Virus record (IMG/VR): IMGVR_UViG_2721755728_000002
DNA length: 55,396 nucleotides
Strand: one strand, 5' to 3'
From: a virus
Lineage: Duplodnaviria; Heunggongvirae; Uroviricota; Caudoviricetes
Made by a program: the position numbers and the translations under genes. Shown in pieces: positions 1,419 to 19,230 of this stretch (position 1 is the stretch's first letter; each line of letters begins with the position of its first letter). The notes beneath the pieces were generated by a model that was given only the letters and a program-made list of their open reading frames with translations, was not told the origin of the DNA and ran no database searches.

Positions 1419-3890
1419 TTAAAAATCAGCCTGACTCGGGATCAGTTTTTGCCAGATAACTGAAACGTATTTTGCCTGGTAACGGGCGTCATCAAGTGCA
1501 TTATGGCGCTCACCTTCGAATGGAATAGCCGTTCTGGCATCGAAGTCTATGGCTTTCCCCAGCTCAACGATTGTGCGTACATCGCGATCGTTGTAGTAAC
1601 GCCACGGGCAGGGGATCCCCTGCCGTTCGTATGAACGGCGCAAAATCGTGTTGTCGAAGTTGGCTCCATTTCCCCAGACCTGAACAAAAAATTCACCGGA
1701 GTTTTCGTCGATAAATTCCCGCAATTGTAACAGTGCATCATCTAACGGGATTTCATCGGTCATAATGGCAGATTGCGCTTCGCGTGATTGCTTAAGCCAC
1801 CATTTAATGGTGTCCCGATCAATGACTCCGCCAGCAGTTTCCAGATCGATAGTCTTACTAAATTCCGGTCCCATATCTCCGGTTTGCGGATCGAAAAATA
1901 TTGCACCTATTGAGATGATCGGGGCATCAGGATTTTTTCCCATGGTTTCAAGGTCGATCATTAGATGGTCACACGTCCTGCTGGTGGATGTGATTTCTTG
2001 ATGACCGTTCACCTTAATTGGGTGATCTGCCGTCTCGCCAGTTTCATTATCGCTATCGTGATGCTGATTGCCGCCAGTGTTCTCCTTGTGTGGATGTTCA
2101 GCGCCTTCCATTTCCTCCGGATCATCTTCCTGAACTTCAACCTGATACTCTTCATCGAATGTTTCCTGGTATGTAGCGTCGCCCATCACCGCGCCACAAT
2201 CAGGGCAGTTGCCGCCGCCGGTCTGACCGCAGGCGGTGCAGACTTTTTCCACTTCCTGTTGCACTACTGGTTCAGGTAGTTTCGTTTCTGGCTCGTTTTG
2301 TTGCGTATTTGGGCTGTTTTGTTCCGCTTTCTGGTCGTTCTGTTCCGTTTCTTGCTGGTTCTGGTTCACAGAATCGCGGGTTTCAATCCCCTTCACCCAT
2401 TTCGGATCATTCGGGTCGCTAATCCCTGCAACAAATTCACCACGTGATGCGGCGAGCAACTGATTGGCGTCAGGCTGGCTGATATTGGCTGCCTGCATAA
2501 TTTTCTTTACTTCGTCAGCGGTAACTTTTACCGGTTCTGGTTGTTCAGAATTTTGTGCGGTATTTGCATTTTGCGGTAAGCCTGTGTATGTGCCATTTTT
2601 TCGGGCGAAATATTCTTCTTTCGTGATTTCAGTAGCCCCTGCAGCCAGTGCCTTATCCAGACCAGAAAGTTTGTTTGCGCGACCGTATTTTTCGCTATCC
2701 TTGTCGGTGAAGAGGAAGTAGAACGGCCCTTCACGCTCTACAGATGGTTCGACTTCCACTTTGCATTCGGTTTTTTCGTTGTCCGGAATTGCCGTTTCCA
2801 CTGCATCAGTTTCTGGTACTGGCGACGAGAGAGTATCAGTTGCGCTCTGATTTCTTCCTTCATCTTCAAACACGCCCTTTGTAGTCAGGTATTCAGTAAT
2901 GTATTTGTTCAGTGCCACAGGGTCTTTGTGAATGTCGATCGGACGTTCACGGACAAGGCCAAAAATAGTCTGGCGGTCGTAGCGAAGGGCATCAGGCTGT
3001 TTGCGCATTGATGCCGAGATACGCTTCCAGTCTTCGCGGTCGTTGTCGATAACTTCTTTTTTTGCCCAGCGATGGATGCTGCCGTCAATGTTTCCGGCAT
3101 CCACATCACCAGGCCAGAGAGCGTAGGCCAGTTCGTCATCCAGTGTTTTCCATGTCTGCTTGTATTCGCGATGAGTGGCAGCAATGACCGGGCTGATTTT
3201 TCCTGTTGAATTTTCAGTGTTCTGTTGATTGGCTCTGGCGCGGGCGAGATCAACAACAGACGTGTATTTTCCGGTTTCCTTGCGTTCACCTTCGCGACGT
3301 TTTTTCCAGATGCGCATCTCTGCCTGAATTTCGGGCCATTTGGCACCAGGCTTACATTTATGCTTAACCCACCCGATGGCATGCAGCTTAAGCTCCGGAT
3401 ACATGGCGTTAACTTCTGGCATTTTCATCAACGCTTCAACGATATGTCCGTCGAATGTTGCCATGTCTTCCTGCAACAATTCCTGCGCGCTAATCACCAT
3501 ATCAACGGTGATGTTTTCACATGTGTCGAACTTAACCATGACAGCGTTCTGTACTTCAGGGGCCAGCTTGTCAAAAGTGACGTTCATCGGATCTGATTCA
3601 GTCTCAACCGGGACAAAGGAAGCAGACTCCTCATCCCAGCGGTTTTCCTGCATATATTCAGCATCCCAGGAATCGAGGGCAGGGCGGGGTATACCGGGTT
3701 TATCCTCGCAAACAAGAAATTTATAAGCGCAGTCCTGAGCAGCCGGATAATGTTCCAGGAATTGCCAGTGAAATTTTGCGCGGGCGCGACGTTCATCACC
3801 GGCTTCAATGGCAGTGGCTACAGCGACTGCACCTTCTTCCTTTATTGCCTGTTCGTCCGGAATGGCGGCGCAAATAAAGACTTTACTCAT
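1419..3890 (-). CDS. Phage exonuclease with C-terminal DnaQ-like (DEDDh) 3'-5' exonuclease domain
   Basis: 823 aa ORF; C-terminus has Exo I (MIDLETMG), Exo II (VWGNGANFD) and Exo III (HNALDDARY) motifs; GAGG RBS before ATG at 3890. Confidence 0.7.
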   Translation of the reverse strand: MSKVFICAAIPDEQAIKEEGAVAVATAIEAGDERRARAKFHWQFLEHYPAAQDCAYKFLVCEDKPGIPRPALDSWDAEYMQENRWDEESASFVPVETESDPMNVTFDKLAPEVQNAVMVKFDTCENITVDMVISAQELLQEDMATFDGHIVEALMKMPEVNAMYPELKLHAIGWVKHKCKPGAKWPEIQAEMRIWKKRREGERKETGKYTSVVDLARARANQQNTENSTGKISPVIAATHREYKQTWKTLDDELAYALWPGDVDAGNIDGSIHRWAKKEVIDNDREDWKRISASMRKQPDALRYDRQTIFGLVRERPIDIHKDPVALNKYITEYLTTKGVFEDEGRNQSATDTLSSPVPETDAVETAIPDNEKTECKVEVEPSVEREGPFYFLFTDKDSEKYGRANKLSGLDKALAAGATEITKEEYFARKNGTYTGLPQNANTAQNSEQPEPVKVTADEVKKIMQAANISQPDANQLLAASRGEFVAGISDPNDPKWVKGIETRDSVNQNQQETEQNDQKAEQNSPNTQQNEPETKLPEPVVQQEVEKVCTACGQTGGGNCPDCGAVMGDATYQETFDEEYQVEVQEDDPEEMEGAEHPHKENTGGNQHHDSDNETGETADHPIKVNGHQEITSTSRTCDHLMIDLETMGKNPDAPIISIGAIFFDPQTGDMGPEFSKTIDLETAGGVIDRDTIKWWLKQSREAQSAIMTDEIPLDDALLQLREFIDENSGEFFVQVWGNGANFDNTILRRSYERQGIPCPWRYYNDRDVRTIVELGKAIDFDARTAIPFEGERHNALDDARYQAKYVSVIWQKLIPSQADF

Positions 3891-4359: not shown

Positions 4360-4927
4360 TATCGCGTCCTCAACAATGAATTTTGTGATGCAGTGCCTGG
4401 TGCCTCCAGGTGACGTTAACCAGTTAACAATTAACGCCGGATACAGAGAATCCACCCATAACACTGTTTTTGGTTTTAACTGTTCCGCGTGCGCTTAGCC
4501 GCATTCACCGCATCACAAAATTCACTTTAAAAAGGGCGGCAGAGCAGTCACGGAGTAAAACTGATACCGCCAAACGTCACCAGAAAATTGATAACAGAGG
4601 GCGTTGCAGCGGGGTTGTCACTTAAGCGTATGGTCAACCTGACAACCCGGTGTCCTCAACGGGGGAAGGAATAACCCCGCCATACTTACCGCCGCGCCAT
4701 TTCGCGGATTGCCACAACCGGAAGCGCACGGTCGACGAAAATTTAACGACAGGCTATCTATGAACCAGCTACCTCGCCGTGCGCTTTCGCGTTATGGTCT
4801 GACTTTTCAGGGAAATATCCTTTCAGTAAACTGTCAGTGCCGGATGCTCACCCGTGTCCGGCGCACGCACTCCACCTCATCCGTGGAGAACTCCTTAATT
4901 ACCAACCTTAGCTTCGTTGGTTAGCTA

Positions 4928-10316: not shown

Positions 10317-11511
<1,195 letters not shown>

Positions 11512-12349: not shown

Positions 12350-13219
12350 ATGACCACTATTACCAAAGAACGTATTGAATTGTTCATTAAAAATCCGGTT
12401 GAAAACGGGCTTACCCGTGGTGAACAAATGGAACTGGCACGGATTGCGCTGGCATCGCTGGAAGCAGAGCCGGTGGCAAAGATTATAGCTCATTACCCAT
12501 TAGGGGTTGACGTAGGCAAACAAAAATTCGTACAGGCCATTAGAGAGCTTCCTGACTTTGGCGGATATCTATTTGCCGCCCCTCCAGCGCCGATAGTGCC
12601 GGAAGAAATGTATTGGCAGGATGCGCCAGTTGAAGGCAGCAGCAAAGCGGCTGCATACGCTACAGGCTGGAACGATTGCCGCGAAGCCATGCTTCAGTCC
12701 GGAAACTTTCGGGAAAATAAAGATTCGTCAACCAATAATTTTCGGAAAATCCCGGAAGCGTCAACCAGCTCTCCGGTAACTCCGGCTCTTCTGCCTGGTG
12801 GTTTCACCATTGAGGAGGCGAAGGAATTACATGAAGACCTGGTACGCAGCCACATAAGCAAGGCCTTAAGTGGCGAAAAGATGAAAAAGAAAGATCGCGA
12901 TGCTGATTTGCGCTGGATTCATGGCGTTATAGTTCAGGCAGCGTGGTTTGTAAAAGCATCACTGGAGCAGAATGCACTATCGGGCAACTATCCGGTAACT
13001 CCGGATAGTTGGATAAGCTGTAGTGAGCGAATGCCGGATACCAAAACAGCCGTTCTTGTTGCCGTGGAGTTTGACAGGAAAGGTGACTGGCGAATGAAAT
13101 GGGCGACTTACATCCCGGGTCATCCTGACGCTAATGATGGGTGGATAATTCCTGGTGCGTCGTGGAAACCGTCACACTGGATGCCGCTACCAGAACCGCC
13201 GCAGGAGGTGCGCCAATGA
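12350..13219 (+). CDS. Hypothetical phage protein with DUF551-like C-terminus
   Basis: 289 aa; GGAG RBS. Confidence 0.55.
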   Translation: MTTITKERIELFIKNPVENGLTRGEQMELARIALASLEAEPVAKIIAHYPLGVDVGKQKFVQAIRELPDFGGYLFAAPPAPIVPEEMYWQDAPVEGSSKAAAYATGWNDCREAMLQSGNFRENKDSSTNNFRKIPEASTSSPVTPALLPGGFTIEEAKELHEDLVRSHISKALSGEKMKKKDRDADLRWIHGVIVQAAWFVKASLEQNALSGNYPVTPDSWISCSERMPDTKTAVLVAVEFDRKGDWRMKWATYIPGHPDANDGWIIPGASWKPSHWMPLPEPPQEVRQ

Positions 13220-13299
13220 ACTGGCCTGAAGCATTTGCAATTACAGGCGTTGCTATGGCTATCGCTTTTTTAGTATATGTTATTTGTCGGTGGGGGTAA
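13216..13299 (+). CDS. Very small hydrophobic peptide
   Basis: 27 aa; ATGA overlap with upstream stop. Confidence 0.3.
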   Translation: MNWPEAFAITGVAMAIAFLVYVICRWG

Positions 13300-13334
13300 A
13301 AACGTTCGCCGGGATTAACACCAAAGGAGGGAAT

Positions 13335-13439
13335 ATGTCGGATGATATATCACTGGCAATGGAAGGTGCGCTGGCTGTTGTTGCTGTTGTGGGCGTTTAC
13401 TGCCTGGTTGTGTTTTTGATGGATCGACTAGGGAACTGA
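13335..13439 (+). CDS. Small membrane peptide
   Basis: 34 aa (ALAVVAVVGVYCLVVFLM); AGGAGGG RBS. Confidence 0.3.
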   Translation: MSDDISLAMEGALAVVAVVGVYCLVVFLMDRLGN

Positions 13440-13685
13440 ATTCATTACGATATGGGAATTCCCATATCGGGTAAAAACGGTTTGCGGGAAAAGGAGAGTT
13501 AAGTAGAATTGCTGCGGGTGCTTGAGGCTATCTGTCTCAGGCATGAACACCAAAAGGCAGATAGAGAAAAGCCCCAGTTAACATTACGCGTCCTGCAAGA
13601 CGCTTAACATTAATCTGAGGCCCAATCTATGTCTCACAAATGTAGGTTAGCCTCTTACGTGCCGAAAGGCAAGGAGAAGCAGGCT

Positions 13686-13841
13686 ATGAAGCAGCAAAAG
13701 GCGATGTTAATCGCCCTGATCGTCATCTGTTTAACCGTCATAGTGACGGCACTGGTAACGAGGAAAGACCTCTGCGAGGTACGAATCCGAACCGGCCAGA
13801 CGGAGGTCGCTGTCTTCACAGCTTACGAACCTGAGGAATAA
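13686..13841 (+). CDS. hok: Hok/Gef-family type I toxin
   Basis: 51 aa MKQQKAMLIALIVICLTVIVTALVTRKDLCEVRIRTGQTEVAVFTAYEPEE; typical Hok membrane peptide; in-frame upstream extension from 13629. Confidence 0.8.
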   Translation: MKQQKAMLIALIVICLTVIVTALVTRKDLCEVRIRTGQTEVAVFTAYEPEE

Positions 13842-13910
13842 GAGACCCGGCGGGGGAGAAATCCCTCGCCACCGCTGATGTGTCAGGCATCCTCAACGCA
13901 CCCGCACTTA

Positions 13911-13937
13911 ACCCGCTTCGGCGGGTTTTGTTTTTTC
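13911..13937 (+). terminator. Rho-independent terminator downstream of hok
   Basis: cccgc-ttcg-gcggg hairpin followed by ttttgtttttt. Confidence 0.5.
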
Positions 13938-18020: not shown

Positions 18021-18096
18021 GGCCCTTTAGCTCAGTGGTGAGAGCGAGCGACTCATAATCGCCAGGTCGCTGGTTCAAATCCAGCAAGGGCCACCA
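18021..18096 (+). tRNA. tRNA with CAU anticodon (Ile2/ileX-like, or Met)
   Basis: 76 nt cloverleaf; acceptor stem GGCCCTT/AAGGGCC plus ACCA; anticodon loop CTCATAA; GGTTCAAATCC T-arm. Confidence 0.8.
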
Positions 18097-18196: not shown

Positions 18197-18273
18197 GCGT
18201 TGTTAGCTCAGCCGGACAGAGCAATTGCCTTCTAAGCAATCGGTCAGTGGTTCGACTCCACTACAACGCGCCA
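18197..18273 (+). tRNA. tRNA-Arg (UCU anticodon)
   Basis: 77 nt; acceptor GCGTTGT/ACAACGC plus GCCA; anticodon stem-loop ATTGC-CTTCTAA-GCAAT; GGTTCGACTCC T-arm. Confidence 0.8.
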
Positions 18274-18442: not shown

Positions 18443-18874
18443 ATGTTTGGAATCTTCAAAAAGAAAACCCGCAGAGCGGCAGCGGAAATTAAAAAGTTTG
18501 AGAAACGCGATCTGGCACAGGCGGTGATTAACGCTGCATACCTGGTGGCCTATGCAGATGGTGAATGCGAGGCATCCGAGAAAGCGAAGATCGAACAGGT
18601 CTTACGTAATCAGCCTGCGTTGTCTGCGTTTACCTCGGAAATTAATGCGATTAGCGCAACTATTATCGGTCAGCTGGATACCAATTTTAAAATTGGTCGT
18701 CGTGCCGCGTTACGCGAGATTGAGGATGTGAAACACGATACGCGTGAAGCGGAAGATGTGCTGGATGTGGCGGTGGCCATTGCGGAGGCAGACGGCGAAA
18801 TTGAGCCGGAAGAGCGCAAGGTGCTGGAAGAGATTGCCGGTGTTCTGGGTCTTCGTCTGGAGAATCACCTGTGA
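18443..18874 (+). CDS. TerB-like (tellurite-resistance TerB fold) protein
   Basis: 143 aa from MFGIFKKKTRR; paired acidic helices typical of TerB; AAAGGA RBS. Confidence 0.5.
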   Translation: MFGIFKKKTRRAAAEIKKFEKRDLAQAVINAAYLVAYADGECEASEKAKIEQVLRNQPALSAFTSEINAISATIIGQLDTNFKIGRRAALREIEDVKHDTREAEDVLDVAVAIAEADGEIEPEERKVLEEIAGVLGLRLENHL

Positions 18875-19080
18875 CGGTAAAACTGCGCCTGGCTGTGGCT
18901 GCACTCCTGCTGTTTCTGGTGGTGATGGTGGATTTCACCAGCAGAATCATGTCGGTGCTGGCGGATGGGGTGCTGGTCTGCGGCATTGTGGTATTGCTGT
19001 GGCCGGTGATAAAAAGAAACAGCCTGCATAATGCTTGGTTTTTTTGTTTGCTGTTTATTAAAAACACTTCTGCATGGTGA
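18871..19080 (+). CDS. Small membrane protein coupled to the TerB-like gene
   Basis: 69 aa, two hydrophobic helices; GTGA start/stop overlap. Confidence 0.45.
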   Translation: MTVKLRLAVAALLLFLVVMVDFTSRIMSVLADGVLVCGIVVLLWPVIKRNSLHNAWFFCLLFIKNTSAW

Positions 19081-19205
19081 ATCCCCCTGTGCGGAGGGGC
19101 GATCAGCAACCAGGTATATGGGATAATCGCGGATTTAGGTGCTGATACTGAATTCACCGGGAGGCACCCGGCACCATACAAGAAAAAGAATGTGCATGCA
19201 AACAT

Positions 19206-19230
19206 GCCCCTCTCCGGAGGGGCTTTTTTA
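19206..19230 (+). terminator. Rho-independent terminator
   Basis: gcccctc-tccg-gaggggc followed by ttttttat. Confidence 0.55.

What the first reader, a model, noticed from the sequence alone, without database searches (positions are those of the whole stretch)
13440..13690. 22-bp perfect palindrome and structured leader upstream of the hok-family toxin
CGATATGGGAATTCCCATATCG (13448-13469) is a perfect palindrome centred on GAATTC. Further inverted repeats (ctatctg...cagatag at 13528-13564; gcgtcctgcaagacgc at 13592-13607) precede the hok start, and an in-frame upstream reading frame begins at 13629. This fits a type I toxin locus with a folded mRNA and antisense control; no antisense RNA was annotated.
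Basis: partly seen in the sequence, partly recalled or inferred. Interest (0 to 1): 0.45.

Follow-up and report, generated by a model that had tools for sequence, protein, structure and literature searches.

The report
Known hok/sok toxin locus plus stray palindrome
The folded leader is an ordinary, intact hok/mok/sok toxin-antitoxin cassette of a lambdoid prophage, while the 22-bp palindrome lies outside it and is a stray copy of a covarying palindrome that normally sits inside phage KilA-N genes.

Summary
The 22-bp perfect palindrome is at 13448-13469, the 5' hairpin arms and the in-frame upstream ORF (13629) are where stated, and the 16-nt palindrome is at 13588-13603, 4 nt from the stated position.

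The leader is a canonical hok/mok/sok type I toxin-antitoxin cassette:
- full-length Rfam RF01794 match;
- Hok identical to E. coli HokD;
- about 93% DNA identity to the tested hokW-sokW of phage 933W/Sp5;
- 5'-3' (tac/fbi) closure, and structure supported by covariation in 58 loci;
- an unannotated 71-nt Sok on the minus strand (13637->13567).
This part is already known biology.

The palindrome is not part of the cassette. It lies at -68 to -47 of the hok promoter, just outside the conserved unit (which starts near -46). It is absent from 933W and from most hok loci, and it has no terminator tail.

The same 22-mer encodes "DMGIPIS" in phage KilA-N genes. One such gene lies divergently next to hok in related phages, and the window keeps short KilA-N-like flanks. 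I read it as a gene remnant at a mosaic junction.

Unexpectedly, this KilA-N subfamily keeps a covarying inverted repeat at that codon position (9 of 9 pairs compensated). Its function is unknown.

The parts
13218..13299 (+). Small hydrophobic ORF1 (27 aa, MNWPEAFAITGVAMAIAFLVYVICRWG). This is context only. In 933W its homologue directly precedes the hok promoter.
   Evidence: weak phrog_38566 match
13294..13304 (+). Left copy of the direct repeat GGGTAAAAACG. Together with the copy at 13469 it brackets the [ORF2 + palindrome] module, which is missing in 933W-type loci.
   Evidence: (D1)
13337..13439 (+). Small hydrophobic ORF2 (34 aa, annotated hypothetical protein WP_001278454.1). Its stop codon lies 8 nt before the palindrome.
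13436..13473 (-). Short KilA-N-like remnant. Read on the strand opposite to hok it gives (P)DMGIPIS**IQ, compared with SRDMGIPISELIQ in intact KilA-N genes. It is 32/36 nt identical to the KilA-N gene of L061-type phages.
13448..13469 (.). 22-bp perfect palindrome CGATATGGGAATTCCCATATCG, at -68 to -47 relative to the hok start. It is identical to the conserved palindrome that encodes DMGIPIS in KilA-N genes. It is not part of the hok transcript.
13469..13479 (+). Right copy of the direct repeat GGGTAAAAACG. Its A-tract (13472-13476) is where homology between hok loci from different contexts begins. Its position fits a proximal UP-element-like tract (inferred).
13481..13486 (+). hok promoter -35 (TTTGCG; TTGGCG/TTGGCA in other loci), 17 nt from the -10.
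   Evidence: Inferred from conservation and spacing; not called by the consensus scan.
13504..13509 (+). hok promoter -10 (TAGAAT), conserved in nearly all loci.
   Evidence: R1 hok -10 mapped by mutation in PMC9841398
13516..13936 (+). Full-length hok (mok-hok) mRNA, from the start of the Rfam model to the T-run of the terminator.
13516..13527 (+). tac element (GGGUGCUUGAGG). It pairs with fbi in the full-length RNA and with ucb in the isolated 5' segment.
   Evidence: I3; helix 1, 99.1% paired
13528..13564 (+).
   Evidence: helix 2
13567..13637 (-). Predicted Sok antisense RNA (71 nt). It has a single-stranded 5' tail complementary to the mok start region, a long hairpin, then GGGGCUUUU.
   Evidence: Mapped from the sokW misc_RNA annotated in 933W through alignment A1. 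Fold -31.1 kcal/mol, z = -4.8.
13571..13575 (+). ucb (GCCCC), paired with the mok Shine-Dalgarno in the full-length fold.
   Evidence: helix 5; definitions in PMC9841398
13588..13603 (+). 16-nt palindrome GCGTCCTGCAAGACGC at the tip of the hairpin shared by the hok leader and Sok. It is an insertion relative to the Rfam consensus.
13617..13620 (+). mok Shine-Dalgarno (GAGG), 8 nt before the mok ATG.
   Evidence: pairing
13629..13841 (+). mok reading frame (70 aa) overlapping hok. Its first ~8 codons are the hypervariable Sok-target region.
13644..13649 (-). Predicted Sok promoter -10 (TAACCT on the minus strand), ending 7 nt before the mapped Sok 5' end.
   Evidence: Homology to the 933W sokW annotation. 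The sokW promoter was inactivated by -10 mutations in PMC8621323. Not called by the consensus scan.
13650..13654 (+). dcb (GCCUC), paired with the mok Shine-Dalgarno in the Rfam consensus (translatable) structure.
   Evidence: alignment; definitions in PMC9841398
13667..13672 (-). Predicted Sok promoter -35 (TTGCCT on the minus strand), with a 17-nt spacer.
   Evidence: conserved columns
13686..13841 (+). hok toxin gene (51 aa). The product is identical to E. coli HokD, WP_000813254.1.
   Evidence: phrog_251, E = 7.7e-33
13891..13903 (+). fbi element (CCUCAACGCACCC), complementary to tac. It is conserved in 56 of 58 loci while the sequence 3' of it diverges.
   Evidence: (I3)
13910..13936 (+). 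Intrinsic terminator of the hok mRNA (AACCCGCTTCGGCGGGTT followed by a T-run).
   Evidence: helix 17

Best explanation
Window 13481-13936 is an intact hok/mok/sok type I toxin-antitoxin cassette of the hokD/hokW type, sitting in the nin-like region of a lambdoid prophage.

Proposed mechanism:
- A weak promoter (TTTGCG-17-TAGAAT) makes a ~421-nt mRNA starting near 13516.
- The 5' end of that mRNA (tac) is locked to its 3' end (fbi, 13891-13903), and the mok ribosome site is sequestered by ucb, so the full-length RNA is inert.
- By analogy with R1 hok, slow 3' trimming releases tac, exposes the mok start and allows coupled mok-hok translation.
- A constitutive 71-nt antisense RNA, Sok (13637->13567, minus strand; promoter TTGCCT-17-TAACCT), pairs with the mok start region and blocks or destroys the activated mRNA.

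Shown here: sequence, family membership, fold and covariation. Inferred from homologues: transcription, processing and killing.

The 22-bp palindrome is not a component of this system. It lies upstream of the promoter, exactly at the junction between the variable flank and the conserved cassette. It is a stray copy of the palindrome that encodes DMGIPIS inside phage KilA-N genes. It was most likely left behind when a KilA-N gene neighbouring hok was broken or replaced by recombination.
For: hok/sok identity:
- Full-length RF01794 match, 120 bits, E = 7.5e-27.
- Hok identical to HokD; phrog_251 'MokW-like host killing', E = 7.7e-33.
- 93.4% identity to 933W, where mokW, hokW and sokW are annotated.
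- hokW-sokW shown to be a functional type I TA system in PMC8621323.

Structure:
- Full transcript z = -7.1, with 5'-3' closure.
- On 58 loci, 95% of cells are paired versus 34-43% when partners are slid.
- 22 pairs have double-sided changes versus 10.6 in shuffles, 0 of 500 shuffles as high.
- Sok fold z = -4.8.

Palindrome outside the cassette:
- Homology between contexts starts at ~13470-13497.
- Absent in 933W and in at least 10 other upstream contexts.
- No T-run follows it.

KilA-N origin:
- 108 of 139 non-hok copies of the 18-mer lie in ORFs of 100 aa or more, encoding DMGIPIS. These are PF04383, E down to 3.8e-27.
- An intact KilA-N gene lies divergently 547 nt upstream of hok in L061-type phages, with 32/36 nt identity to the window around the palindrome.
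- KilA-N-like flanks on the strand opposite to hok occur in all three palindrome contexts, e.g. SPDMGIPISRLTQSVK, 12/16.
Against: - Neither the hok nor the Sok promoter passes the consensus scan (7/12 matches for Sok).
- No expression data exist for this allele.
- MFE folding of a 3'-truncated transcript did not reproduce the open tac/ucb form.
- For the palindrome, the KilA-N-like flanks in the window itself are very short (9/11 residues, including two stops).
- The same palindrome also occurs in intergenic 'palindrome + terminator' modules that have no KilA-N-like flanks. An independent function, such as a binding site, is therefore not excluded.
- Its survival as a perfect palindrome in three different flank contexts could reflect selection rather than mere descent.
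Confidence: 0.8

Rival explanations
1. The palindrome is a working operator. A dimeric DNA-binding protein, for instance a KilA-N protein from this or another prophage, binds it at -57.5 and modulates the hok promoter or blocks read-through into the cassette.
For: - Perfect symmetry is kept in three different flank contexts, and some variants lengthen it to 24-26 bp.
- The same palindrome is maintained by compensatory change inside KilA-N genes. Pairs are almost purely Watson-Crick, with no G.U strand bias, as expected for duplex DNA.
- One contig carries both a KilA-N gene with the palindrome and the hok-upstream copy (L015).
- KilA-N is a nucleic-acid-binding domain (PMC5571608 citing Iyer et al.).
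Against: - There is no KilA-N gene in the 55-kb window.
- The site is single, not repeated.
- The experimentally functional hokW-sokW lacks it (PMC8621323).
- Imperfect copies exist (L004 has a 1-nt deletion, L005 a central mismatch) without loss of the locus.
- No binding data exist for any KilA-N protein on this sequence.
Confidence: 0.12
2. The palindrome is an RNA hairpin at the 3' end of the upstream small-ORF transcript. It would act as a terminator, an insulator, or a stabiliser against 3' exonucleases, shielding the hok cassette from read-through.
For: - It starts 8 nt after the ORF2 stop codon.
- The hairpin is stable (-14.5 kcal/mol, z = -4.0).
- In other phages the same palindrome sits 12-13 nt after the stop codons of at least four unrelated genes, just before a true terminator.
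Against: - No U-run follows it on either strand, and the terminator scan does not call it.
- In the class A/B loci a separate canonical terminator follows it, which suggests the palindrome itself does not terminate.
- Stem mismatches in the KilA-N copies show no G.U preference for the sense strand (5 G.U versus 9 A.C).
Confidence: 0.07
3. The palindrome is a chance or mutationally self-maintained quasi-palindrome (template-switch correction) with no function and no specific ancestry.
For: - Palindromes can be perfected by template switching (established knowledge).
- The window has four perfect palindromes of 18 bp or more, against 0.19 expected, so palindromes are generally enriched here.
Against: - Only 1.35% of shuffles give a 22-bp palindrome.
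- The identical 22-mer recurs in hundreds of genomes and in KilA-N genes with extended flank similarity.
Confidence: 0.03
4. The hok locus is a decayed, non-functional copy, like hokD in E. coli K-12.
For: - Chromosomal hok loci are often inactivated (own knowledge).
- K-12 hokD lacks everything upstream of window position ~13672.
Against: - All elements are intact here: promoter, tac, ucb, mok start, Sok promoter and hairpin, hok ORF, fbi and terminator.
- No IS element or frameshift is present.
Confidence: 0.05

Closest known systems
hokW-mokW-sokW of Stx2 phages 933W / Sakai prophage Sp5 (type I toxin-antitoxin)
   Same: - ~93% DNA identity over window 13472-13913.
- Same order of promoter, tac, 5' hairpin, Sok hairpin with the 16-nt palindromic tip, mok, hok and fbi.
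- Prophage location.
- Sok annotated at the equivalent position.
- Function shown experimentally (PMC8621323).
   Different: - The Sok-target / mok N-terminal block differs (MSHKC... here versus MLNTC... in 933W), so Sok specificity is probably distinct.
- The Hok C-terminus differs (TAYEPEE versus VDYESEK).
- 933W lacks ORF2 and the palindrome.
- 933W diverges just after fbi and lacks this terminator.
hok/sok (parB) of plasmid R1, the paradigm of the family
   Same: Same regulatory logic and named elements (tac/fbi, ucb/dcb, mok, Sok), as defined in PMC9841398. The leader fits the shared Rfam model at 120 bits.
   Different: - Only ~44% Hok identity is reported for HokW versus R1 Hok (PMC8621323).
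- A 16-nt insertion in the Sok hairpin relative to the Rfam consensus.
- Chromosomal prophage rather than plasmid.
hokD (relF) of E. coli K-12 Qin prophage
   Same: Identical Hok protein, WP_000813254.1, and 98.5% DNA identity over 13672-13935.
   Different: K-12 hokD is truncated upstream by relBE. It lacks the promoter, tac, ucb, the Sok region and the mok start. The window copy is complete.
KilA-N domain genes (PF04383) of enterobacterial and other phages, e.g. Escherichia phage vB_EcoS-673R7 'DNA-binding protein'
   Same: The 22-mer CGATATGGGAATTCCCATATCG is the coding sequence for (x)DMGIPIS in these genes, and short flanks match the window.
   Different: The window has no KilA-N ORF. Only ~36 nt of similarity remain, and they are interrupted by stop codons.
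Intrinsic (Rho-independent) terminators and REP-type extragenic palindromes
   Same: A stable GC-containing hairpin placed just after a stop codon.
   Different: No U-tract, a single copy in the window, and no Rfam family even at E <= 1.

Membership tests
hok/sok type I toxin-antitoxin (Hok/Gef toxin, Rfam RF01794 leader) | Small (~50 aa) hydrophobic Hok/Gef-family toxin ORF | tested here: met
   51-aa ORF at 13686-13841, identical to HokD WP_000813254.1. phrog_251, E = 7.7e-33.
hok/sok type I toxin-antitoxin (Hok/Gef toxin, Rfam RF01794 leader) | Overlapping upstream reading frame (mok) in frame with hok, needed for coupled translation | tested here: met
   70-aa ORF at 13629-13841 with GAGG 8 nt upstream. 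The equivalent is annotated as mokW in 933W.
hok/sok type I toxin-antitoxin (Hok/Gef toxin, Rfam RF01794 leader) | Leader RNA with the family's conserved sequence and secondary structure | tested here: met
   RF01794 positions 1-157 of 157 matched, 120.1 bits versus a gathering score of 59. Covariation on 58 loci.
hok/sok type I toxin-antitoxin (Hok/Gef toxin, Rfam RF01794 leader) | Long-range 5'-3' pairing (tac/fbi) that locks the full-length mRNA | tested here: met
   13516-13527 pairs with 13891-13903 in the MFE and centroid structures and in the repeat scan (I3). 99.1% of cells paired across 58 loci. The 3' side was not fixed by the search pattern.
hok/sok type I toxin-antitoxin (Hok/Gef toxin, Rfam RF01794 leader) | Cis-encoded antisense Sok gene with its own promoter and terminator hairpin overlapping the mok start | tested here: met
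   The position is homologous to the annotated sokW. Fold shows tail + hairpin + U-run, z = -4.8. Promoter hexamers TTGCCT-17-TAACCT are placed correctly, but they are below the consensus-scan threshold.
hok/sok type I toxin-antitoxin (Hok/Gef toxin, Rfam RF01794 leader) | Refolding of the 3'-processed mRNA (tac/ucb and SD/dcb) into a translatable, Sok-sensitive form | tested here: inconclusive
   The isolated 5' 61 nt form the tac/ucb stem, and the Rfam consensus with SD/dcb fits. The MFE of the transcript lacking fbi keeps SD/ucb and folds the 5' end locally instead.
hok/sok type I toxin-antitoxin (Hok/Gef toxin, Rfam RF01794 leader) | Sok and hok transcripts made in vivo; RNase III cleavage; killing when Sok is lost | not testable with these tools
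   Shown only for the homologues hokW-sokW (PMC8621323) and R1 hok/sok (PMC9841398).
Intrinsic terminator (candidate role for the palindrome) | GC-rich hairpin immediately followed by a U-run | tested here: not met
   The hairpin is present. It is followed by GGGUAAAAACGG on the + strand and UAAUGAAUUCAG on the - strand. The terminator scan does not report it.
Conserved part of the hok/sok cassette (candidate role for the palindrome) | Presence and conservation across homologous hok loci | tested here: not met
   Absent in 933W and in more than 10 other upstream contexts. About 1 in 8 leader-scan hits carry it. Conserved homology starts ~3 nt downstream of it.
KilA-N domain gene (PF04383) | An ORF encoding the KilA-N domain | tested here: not met
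   tblastn with two KilA-N proteins finds only the palindrome region in the window. The DMGIPIS frame is closed by stop codons on both strands.
KilA-N domain gene (PF04383) | Remnant status: nucleotide and peptide similarity extending beyond the palindrome, in a consistent orientation | tested here: met
   32/36 nt to the L061-type KilA-N gene. Relics lie on the strand opposite to hok in all three contexts, up to 12/16 residues. This is the same orientation as the intact neighbour gene. The similarity in the window itself is short.
Known RNA families (Rfam 15), tested for the palindrome region | Match to any covariance model | tested here: not met
   No match at E <= 1 in 13280-13520. No family covers the related palindrome + terminator modules.

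The most novel reading that the evidence does not exclude
The 22-bp palindrome is one copy of an apparently undescribed nucleic-acid element: an inverted repeat held at a fixed codon position inside a large subfamily of phage KilA-N genes, from enterobacterial phages to cyanophages and giant-virus MAGs.

Its arms covary between lineages even at the cost of changing the encoded peptide (DMGIPIS, DIGIPIS, VTGIPVT, SMQIRID...). Loose copies sit in intergenic positions, upstream of hok and before terminators.

The near-exclusive Watson-Crick pairing on both strands suggests a duplex DNA site, for example the binding site of the KilA-N protein itself (autoregulation, with extra target sites such as the one at hok). 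Alternatively it could be a recombination linker at module junctions.
Probability: 0.3. Interest if true: 0.65.

Novelty: new member of a known kind. Interest (0 to 1): 0.38.

Why it matters
For the locus itself, little changes. It adds an intact, unannotated Sok RNA and a full regulatory leader to a gene that RefSeq labels only as hokD. It also shows that prophage hok cassettes travel as a ~460-bp unit that begins at about -46.

Two by-products are more useful.
- The copies differ almost only in the Sok-target / mok N-terminal block. That pattern is what one would expect if several copies in one genome must avoid cross-talk.
- The palindrome led to a strong covariation signal for an inverted repeat embedded in KilA-N genes. 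If that is a real cis-element, it would give a testable handle on the function of KilA-N proteins, a very common and poorly understood class of phage DNA-binding proteins. It would also be a rare case of a binding site or structure constraining the protein sequence that overlaps it.

Tried and rejected
- **Palindrome as intrinsic terminator:** rejected. No U-run on either strand, and the scan does not call it.
- **Palindrome as repeated operator within the prophage:** no second copy or half-site enrichment in 55 kb.
- **Palindrome as part of the hok leader:** rejected. It is upstream of the promoter and absent from most loci.
- **Known RNA family:** none for the palindrome region or for the palindrome + terminator modules.
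- **KilA-N gene in the window:** none.
- **Co-occurrence of KilA-N genes with the class A/B palindromes:** none on the <=15-kb pieces held. This is uninformative because the pieces are short.
- **Exact 18-mer scan of species-representative genomes:** mostly returned KilA-N genes and unrelated palindrome arrays in distant phyla, not hok loci. It was useful only as the lead to KilA-N.
- **Consensus promoter scan:** finds neither the hok nor the Sok promoter. Both are placed by homology only.
- **MFE fold of the 3'-truncated mRNA:** did not show the expected open conformation.
- **Literature:** searches for a KilA-N-embedded palindrome or for the HK022 Roi precedent found nothing usable in the held library. 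The Roi precedent (a phage protein binding a site inside its own gene) rests on my memory only.
- **Failed scripts:** One structure string had the wrong length and was corrected.
Full report
**1. Observation**

The sequence CGATATGGGAATTCCCATATCG is a perfect 22-bp palindrome at 13448-13469. It is unique in the window, and its half-site is not repeated above chance. A perfect palindrome of this length arises in 1.35% of 2000 shuffles of the window.

The arms ctatctg (13528-13534) and cagatag (13558-13564) are as stated. The 16-nt palindrome gcgtcctgcaagacgc is real but lies at 13588-13603, four bases left of the stated position. The upstream in-frame ORF begins at 13629.

**2. What the structured leader is**

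An Rfam scan of the whole window gives a full-length match (model 1-157 of 157, 120 bits, E = 7.5e-27) of RF01794 'sok' to 13516-13691 on the + strand. The match is on the hok-sense strand, so the model in effect describes the hok leader. The real Sok is its partial reverse complement.

The window is 100% identical to a prophage of E. coli strain C3. RefSeq annotates only hokD there, and the product is identical to K-12 HokD. The neighbours are a DUF551 gene, two small hydrophobic ORFs, a DUF968/HNH-like gene and rusA, which indicates a nin-type region of a lambdoid prophage.

Window 13472-13913 is 93.4% identical to phage 933W, whose record annotates mokW, hokW and the antisense sokW. hokW-sokW of the near-identical Sakai prophage Sp5 has been shown to be a functional type I toxin-antitoxin pair. 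Its sokW promoter was inactivated by -10 mutations, and it has a role in phage release after induction (PMC8621323).

**3. Anatomy**

On the + strand:
- hok promoter: TTTGCG (13481-13486), 17 nt, TAGAAT (13504-13509). The hexamers are conserved across many loci.
- Transcript: from ~13516 to the terminator at 13910-13936.
- tac: 13516-13527.
- 5' hairpin: 13528-13564.
- ucb (GCCCC): 13571-13575.
- mok Shine-Dalgarno (GAGG): 13617-13620.
- mok: 13629-13841.
- dcb (GCCUC): 13650-13654.
- hok: 13686-13841.
- fbi: 13891-13903.

On the minus strand:
- Sok maps from the 933W annotation, through alignment A1, to 13637->13567 (71 nt).
- Its promoter is TTGCCT (13672-13667), 17 nt, TAACCT (13649-13644).

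The element names follow PMC9841398.

**4. Structural evidence**

- The 421-nt transcript folds at -167.2 kcal/mol, against -126.3 +/- 5.8 for shuffles (z = -7.1). Its first 12 nt pair with 13891-13903.
- Sok folds as a free 5' tail, a long hairpin and GGGGCUUUU (z = -4.8).
- I collected hok loci with a 14-nt leader pattern from viral contigs and from annotated genomes, then aligned 58 sequences that differ by more than 3%.
- Projecting the window's MFE onto this alignment gives 95.0% of cells paired, against 34-43% when partners are slid by 1-3 columns.
- 22 pairs show changes on both sides, against 10.6 in shuffles; 0 of 500 shuffles reach the observed values.
- The tac/fbi helix is 99.1% paired, although only its 5' side was fixed by the search pattern.
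- The 5' hairpin shows A-U to G-C exchange in 16 sequences.

The one step I could not reproduce is the refolding after 3' trimming. The transcript lacking fbi keeps SD/ucb in the MFE. However, the isolated 5' 61 nt do form the tac/ucb stem, and the Rfam consensus containing SD/dcb fits.

The consensus promoter scan calls neither promoter, so both are placed by homology.

**5. Comparison within the family**

- K-12 hokD matches only from ~13672 onward and is preceded by relBE. It therefore lacks the promoter, tac, ucb, Sok and the mok start. The window copy is complete.
- Across loci the Hok peptide is almost invariant, while the first ~8 mok codons, which are the Sok 5'-tail target, are highly variable (MSHKC, MLDTC, MLYTR, MNGKS, MLNTC...).
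- Strain C3 has six hok-like places and O157 strains have eight. This variability is what one would expect if co-resident copies must avoid cross-talk (inference).

**6. The palindrome is not part of the cassette**

- With +1 at 13516, the palindrome spans -68 to -47, so it is not transcribed with hok.
- In 81 distinct upstream variants of 175 anchored loci, similarity between different contexts begins at AAAAACGGTTTGCGG (about -46), two to three bases after the palindrome (also the match boundaries).
- 933W and many others have no palindrome. There the stop codon of a homologue of small ORF1 is followed directly by GATAAAAACGG.
- In the window, GGGTAAAAACG occurs both after ORF1 (13294) and after the palindrome (13469). 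This repeat brackets the [ORF2 + palindrome] module as an insertion or deletion relative to 933W.
- Roughly one in eight leader-scan hits carry the palindrome.
- In complete E. coli genomes the ORF2 + palindrome piece occurs at 1456 places in 666 genomes, against 12,829 hok-like places.
- It is not a terminator: no U-run follows it on either strand.
- Imperfect copies exist. L004 lacks one base and L005 has GGGGATTCCC.

**7. What the palindrome is**

An exact scan with the central 18-mer returned hok-linked copies in three different flank contexts. It also returned many copies with no hok nearby. Of these, 108 of 139 lie in ORFs of 100 aa or more, in the frame GAT ATG GGA ATT CCC ATA TCN = DMGIPIS. 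These ORFs are KilA-N domain proteins (PF04383, E = 3.8e-27 to 1.5e-21).

In L061-type phages an intact KilA-N gene is the divergent neighbour of a hok cassette, with its palindrome 547 nt upstream of hok +1. Around the palindrome the window is 32/36 identical to that gene, in the same orientation.

Read on the strand opposite to hok, all three hok-linked contexts keep KilA-N-like residues beyond the motif:
- SPDMGIPISRLTQSVK (12/16 residues);
- S(S/P)DMGIPISE*IQ;
- SPDMGIPISGLI;
- DMGIPIS**IQ in the window.

The window has no KilA-N gene.

The simplest reading is a gene remnant. A KilA-N gene next to hok was broken or replaced, and the joints fell at its most conserved nucleotides.

**8. Side result: a covarying palindrome inside KilA-N genes**

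In a sample of relatives found with degenerate peptide patterns, the motif codons are nearly fixed (GAT ATG GGR ATY CCC ATA TCG). The preceding codon ends in C whatever its amino acid, while flanking codons vary freely.

A second sample was found with patterns that do not include the motif and gave 33 distinct sequences.
- 24 of the 33 have a perfect inverted repeat of 7-17 bp at this fixed codon position.
- Control windows in the same genes have a mean best stem of 4.5, and only 3 of 193 reach 7 bp.
- The arms differ between lineages, with matched changes that also alter the peptide: CGATATGGG/CCCATATCG, CGATATCGG/CCGATATCG, CGTTACGGG/CCCGTAACG, CGTTACGCA/TGCGTAACG, GGTCTATGC/GCATAGACC and CCGAAGTG/CACTTCGG.
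- Annotated cyanophages PaV-LD and Mic1 show the same pattern.

The formal count gives:
- 9 of 9 pairs with changes on both sides;
- 89.9% of cells paired, against 21-35% when slid;
- covariation score 0.484, against 0.128 in shuffles (0 of 500 as high).

Non-canonical cells show no G.U preference for the sense strand (5 G.U versus 9 A.C). This fits a duplex DNA palindrome, or mutational self-correction, better than a sense-strand RNA hairpin.

The same palindrome also occurs 12-13 nt after the stop codons of at least four unrelated genes and ~8 nt before a canonical terminator in other enterobacterial phage contigs. Those copies have no KilA-N-like flanks, and no Rfam family covers them.

I found no description of this in the held literature. 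That is not proof that it is unknown.

**9. Mechanism and rivals**

Best supported is an intact hok/mok/sok cassette working as in R1 and Sp5, with the palindrome as a KilA-N remnant at a mosaic junction that has no required role in the cassette (confidence 0.8).

The rivals are:
- an operator for a dimeric protein such as a KilA-N protein (0.12);
- an RNA 3' hairpin for the upstream ORFs (0.07);
- chance or self-maintained palindrome (0.03);
- separately, a dead hok locus (0.05).

The operator rival is the interesting one. It is not excluded, because the palindrome stays perfect in three flank contexts and is lengthened to 24-26 bp in some.

**10. Verdict**

Its interpretation is right for the leader and wrong for the palindrome.

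The locus is a new member of a well-known family, with an unannotated Sok. The unexpected lead is the covarying inverted repeat inside KilA-N genes, of which the window holds only a stray copy.

Noticed in passing
L480-L559 (alignment A4); also L337-L416, L474, L477; stray copy at window 13448-13469: A subfamily of phage KilA-N (PF04383) genes carries an inverted repeat of 7-17 bp at a fixed codon position, about 22-30 aa before the QGTW motif. Its arms covary between lineages, and the changes also alter the encoded peptide. All 9 pairs show double-sided change, 89.9% of cells are paired versus 21-35% when slid, and 0 of 500 shuffles reach the score.
   Followed up: yes
L429, L445, L455, L459, L467, L447, L464, L417, L425, L427 and others (positions): The near-identical palindrome CGATATGGG(G/A)AT(T/C)CCCATATCG sits 12-13 nt after the stop codons of at least four unrelated genes and ~8 nt before a GC hairpin + T-run terminator. 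This forms a portable 'palindrome + terminator' module. It has no KilA-N-like flanks and no Rfam family.
   Followed up: partly
window 13622-13643 (alignment A1 columns 107-128): The Sok-target / mok N-terminal block is hypervariable between hok loci (MSHKC, MLDTC, MLYTR, MNGKS, MLNTC...), while Hok is nearly invariant. Genomes carry 6-8 copies, so this looks like diversification of Sok specificity.
   Followed up: partly
window 13588-13603: The 16-nt palindrome at the tip of the Sok/hok hairpin is an insertion relative to the Rfam consensus. One variant in other loci (GCGTCTTGCAGGACGC) is the exact reverse complement of the window's version, as if the hairpin tip had been inverted. It is absent in the PPompW-type loci.
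   Followed up: partly
window 13294-13304 and 13469-13479: The direct repeat GGGTAAAAACG brackets the [34-aa ORF + palindrome] module. 933W-type loci have one copy and no module, which suggests insertion or deletion through this repeat.
   Followed up: partly
window 13218-13299 and 13337-13439: Two small single-helix hydrophobic ORFs (27 and 34 aa) precede hok. Homologues of one or the other precede hok in many phages. They have no family assignment beyond one weak PHROG hit.
   Followed up: no
window 13516-13691: The Rfam family named 'sok antitoxin' (RF01794) matches the hok-sense strand and spans the hok leader up to the hok start codon. The true Sok is the reverse complement of only part of it. 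This is an orientation trap for automatic annotation.
   Followed up: partly
window 12350-13219: There is a continuous 289-aa DUF551-type ORF here (phrog_60, E = 4.8e-60). RefSeq annotates the identical C3 sequence as two partial pseudogene pieces plus a 62-aa DUF551 protein.
   Followed up: no
window 4534-4585 (-), 18021-18093 (+), 18197-18270 (+), 19043-19235 (+), 19236-19297 (-): Other Rfam matches in the window: DicF, two tRNAs, STnc100 and the anti-GcvB sRNA AgvB. This set is typical of EHEC-type lambdoid prophages.
   Followed up: no
window 1607-1624, 18680-18697, 25466-25483: Three further perfect 18-bp palindromes: GGCAGGGGATCCCCTGCC, ACCAATTTTAAAATTGGT and CAGTTAACATGTTAACTG. Four palindromes of 18 bp or more are seen, against 0.19 expected from shuffles.
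   Followed up: no
L160 ~2530-2760; L084 ~13850-13920: An uncultured Alcaligenaceae genome contig (L160) and an IMG/VR viral contig (L084) carry clusters of different palindromes. All are centred on GGAATTCC but have different arms, e.g. GTGAAACGGGAATTCCCGTTTCAC, TCGATATGGGAATTCCCATATCGA and CGTTGCAGGAATTCCCGCAACG. Their relation to the KilA-N palindromes is unknown.
   Followed up: no
L002 186-1166 (about window 10385-11365): An IS5 transposase gene is inserted in the prophage early region upstream of the DUF551 gene.
   Followed up: no
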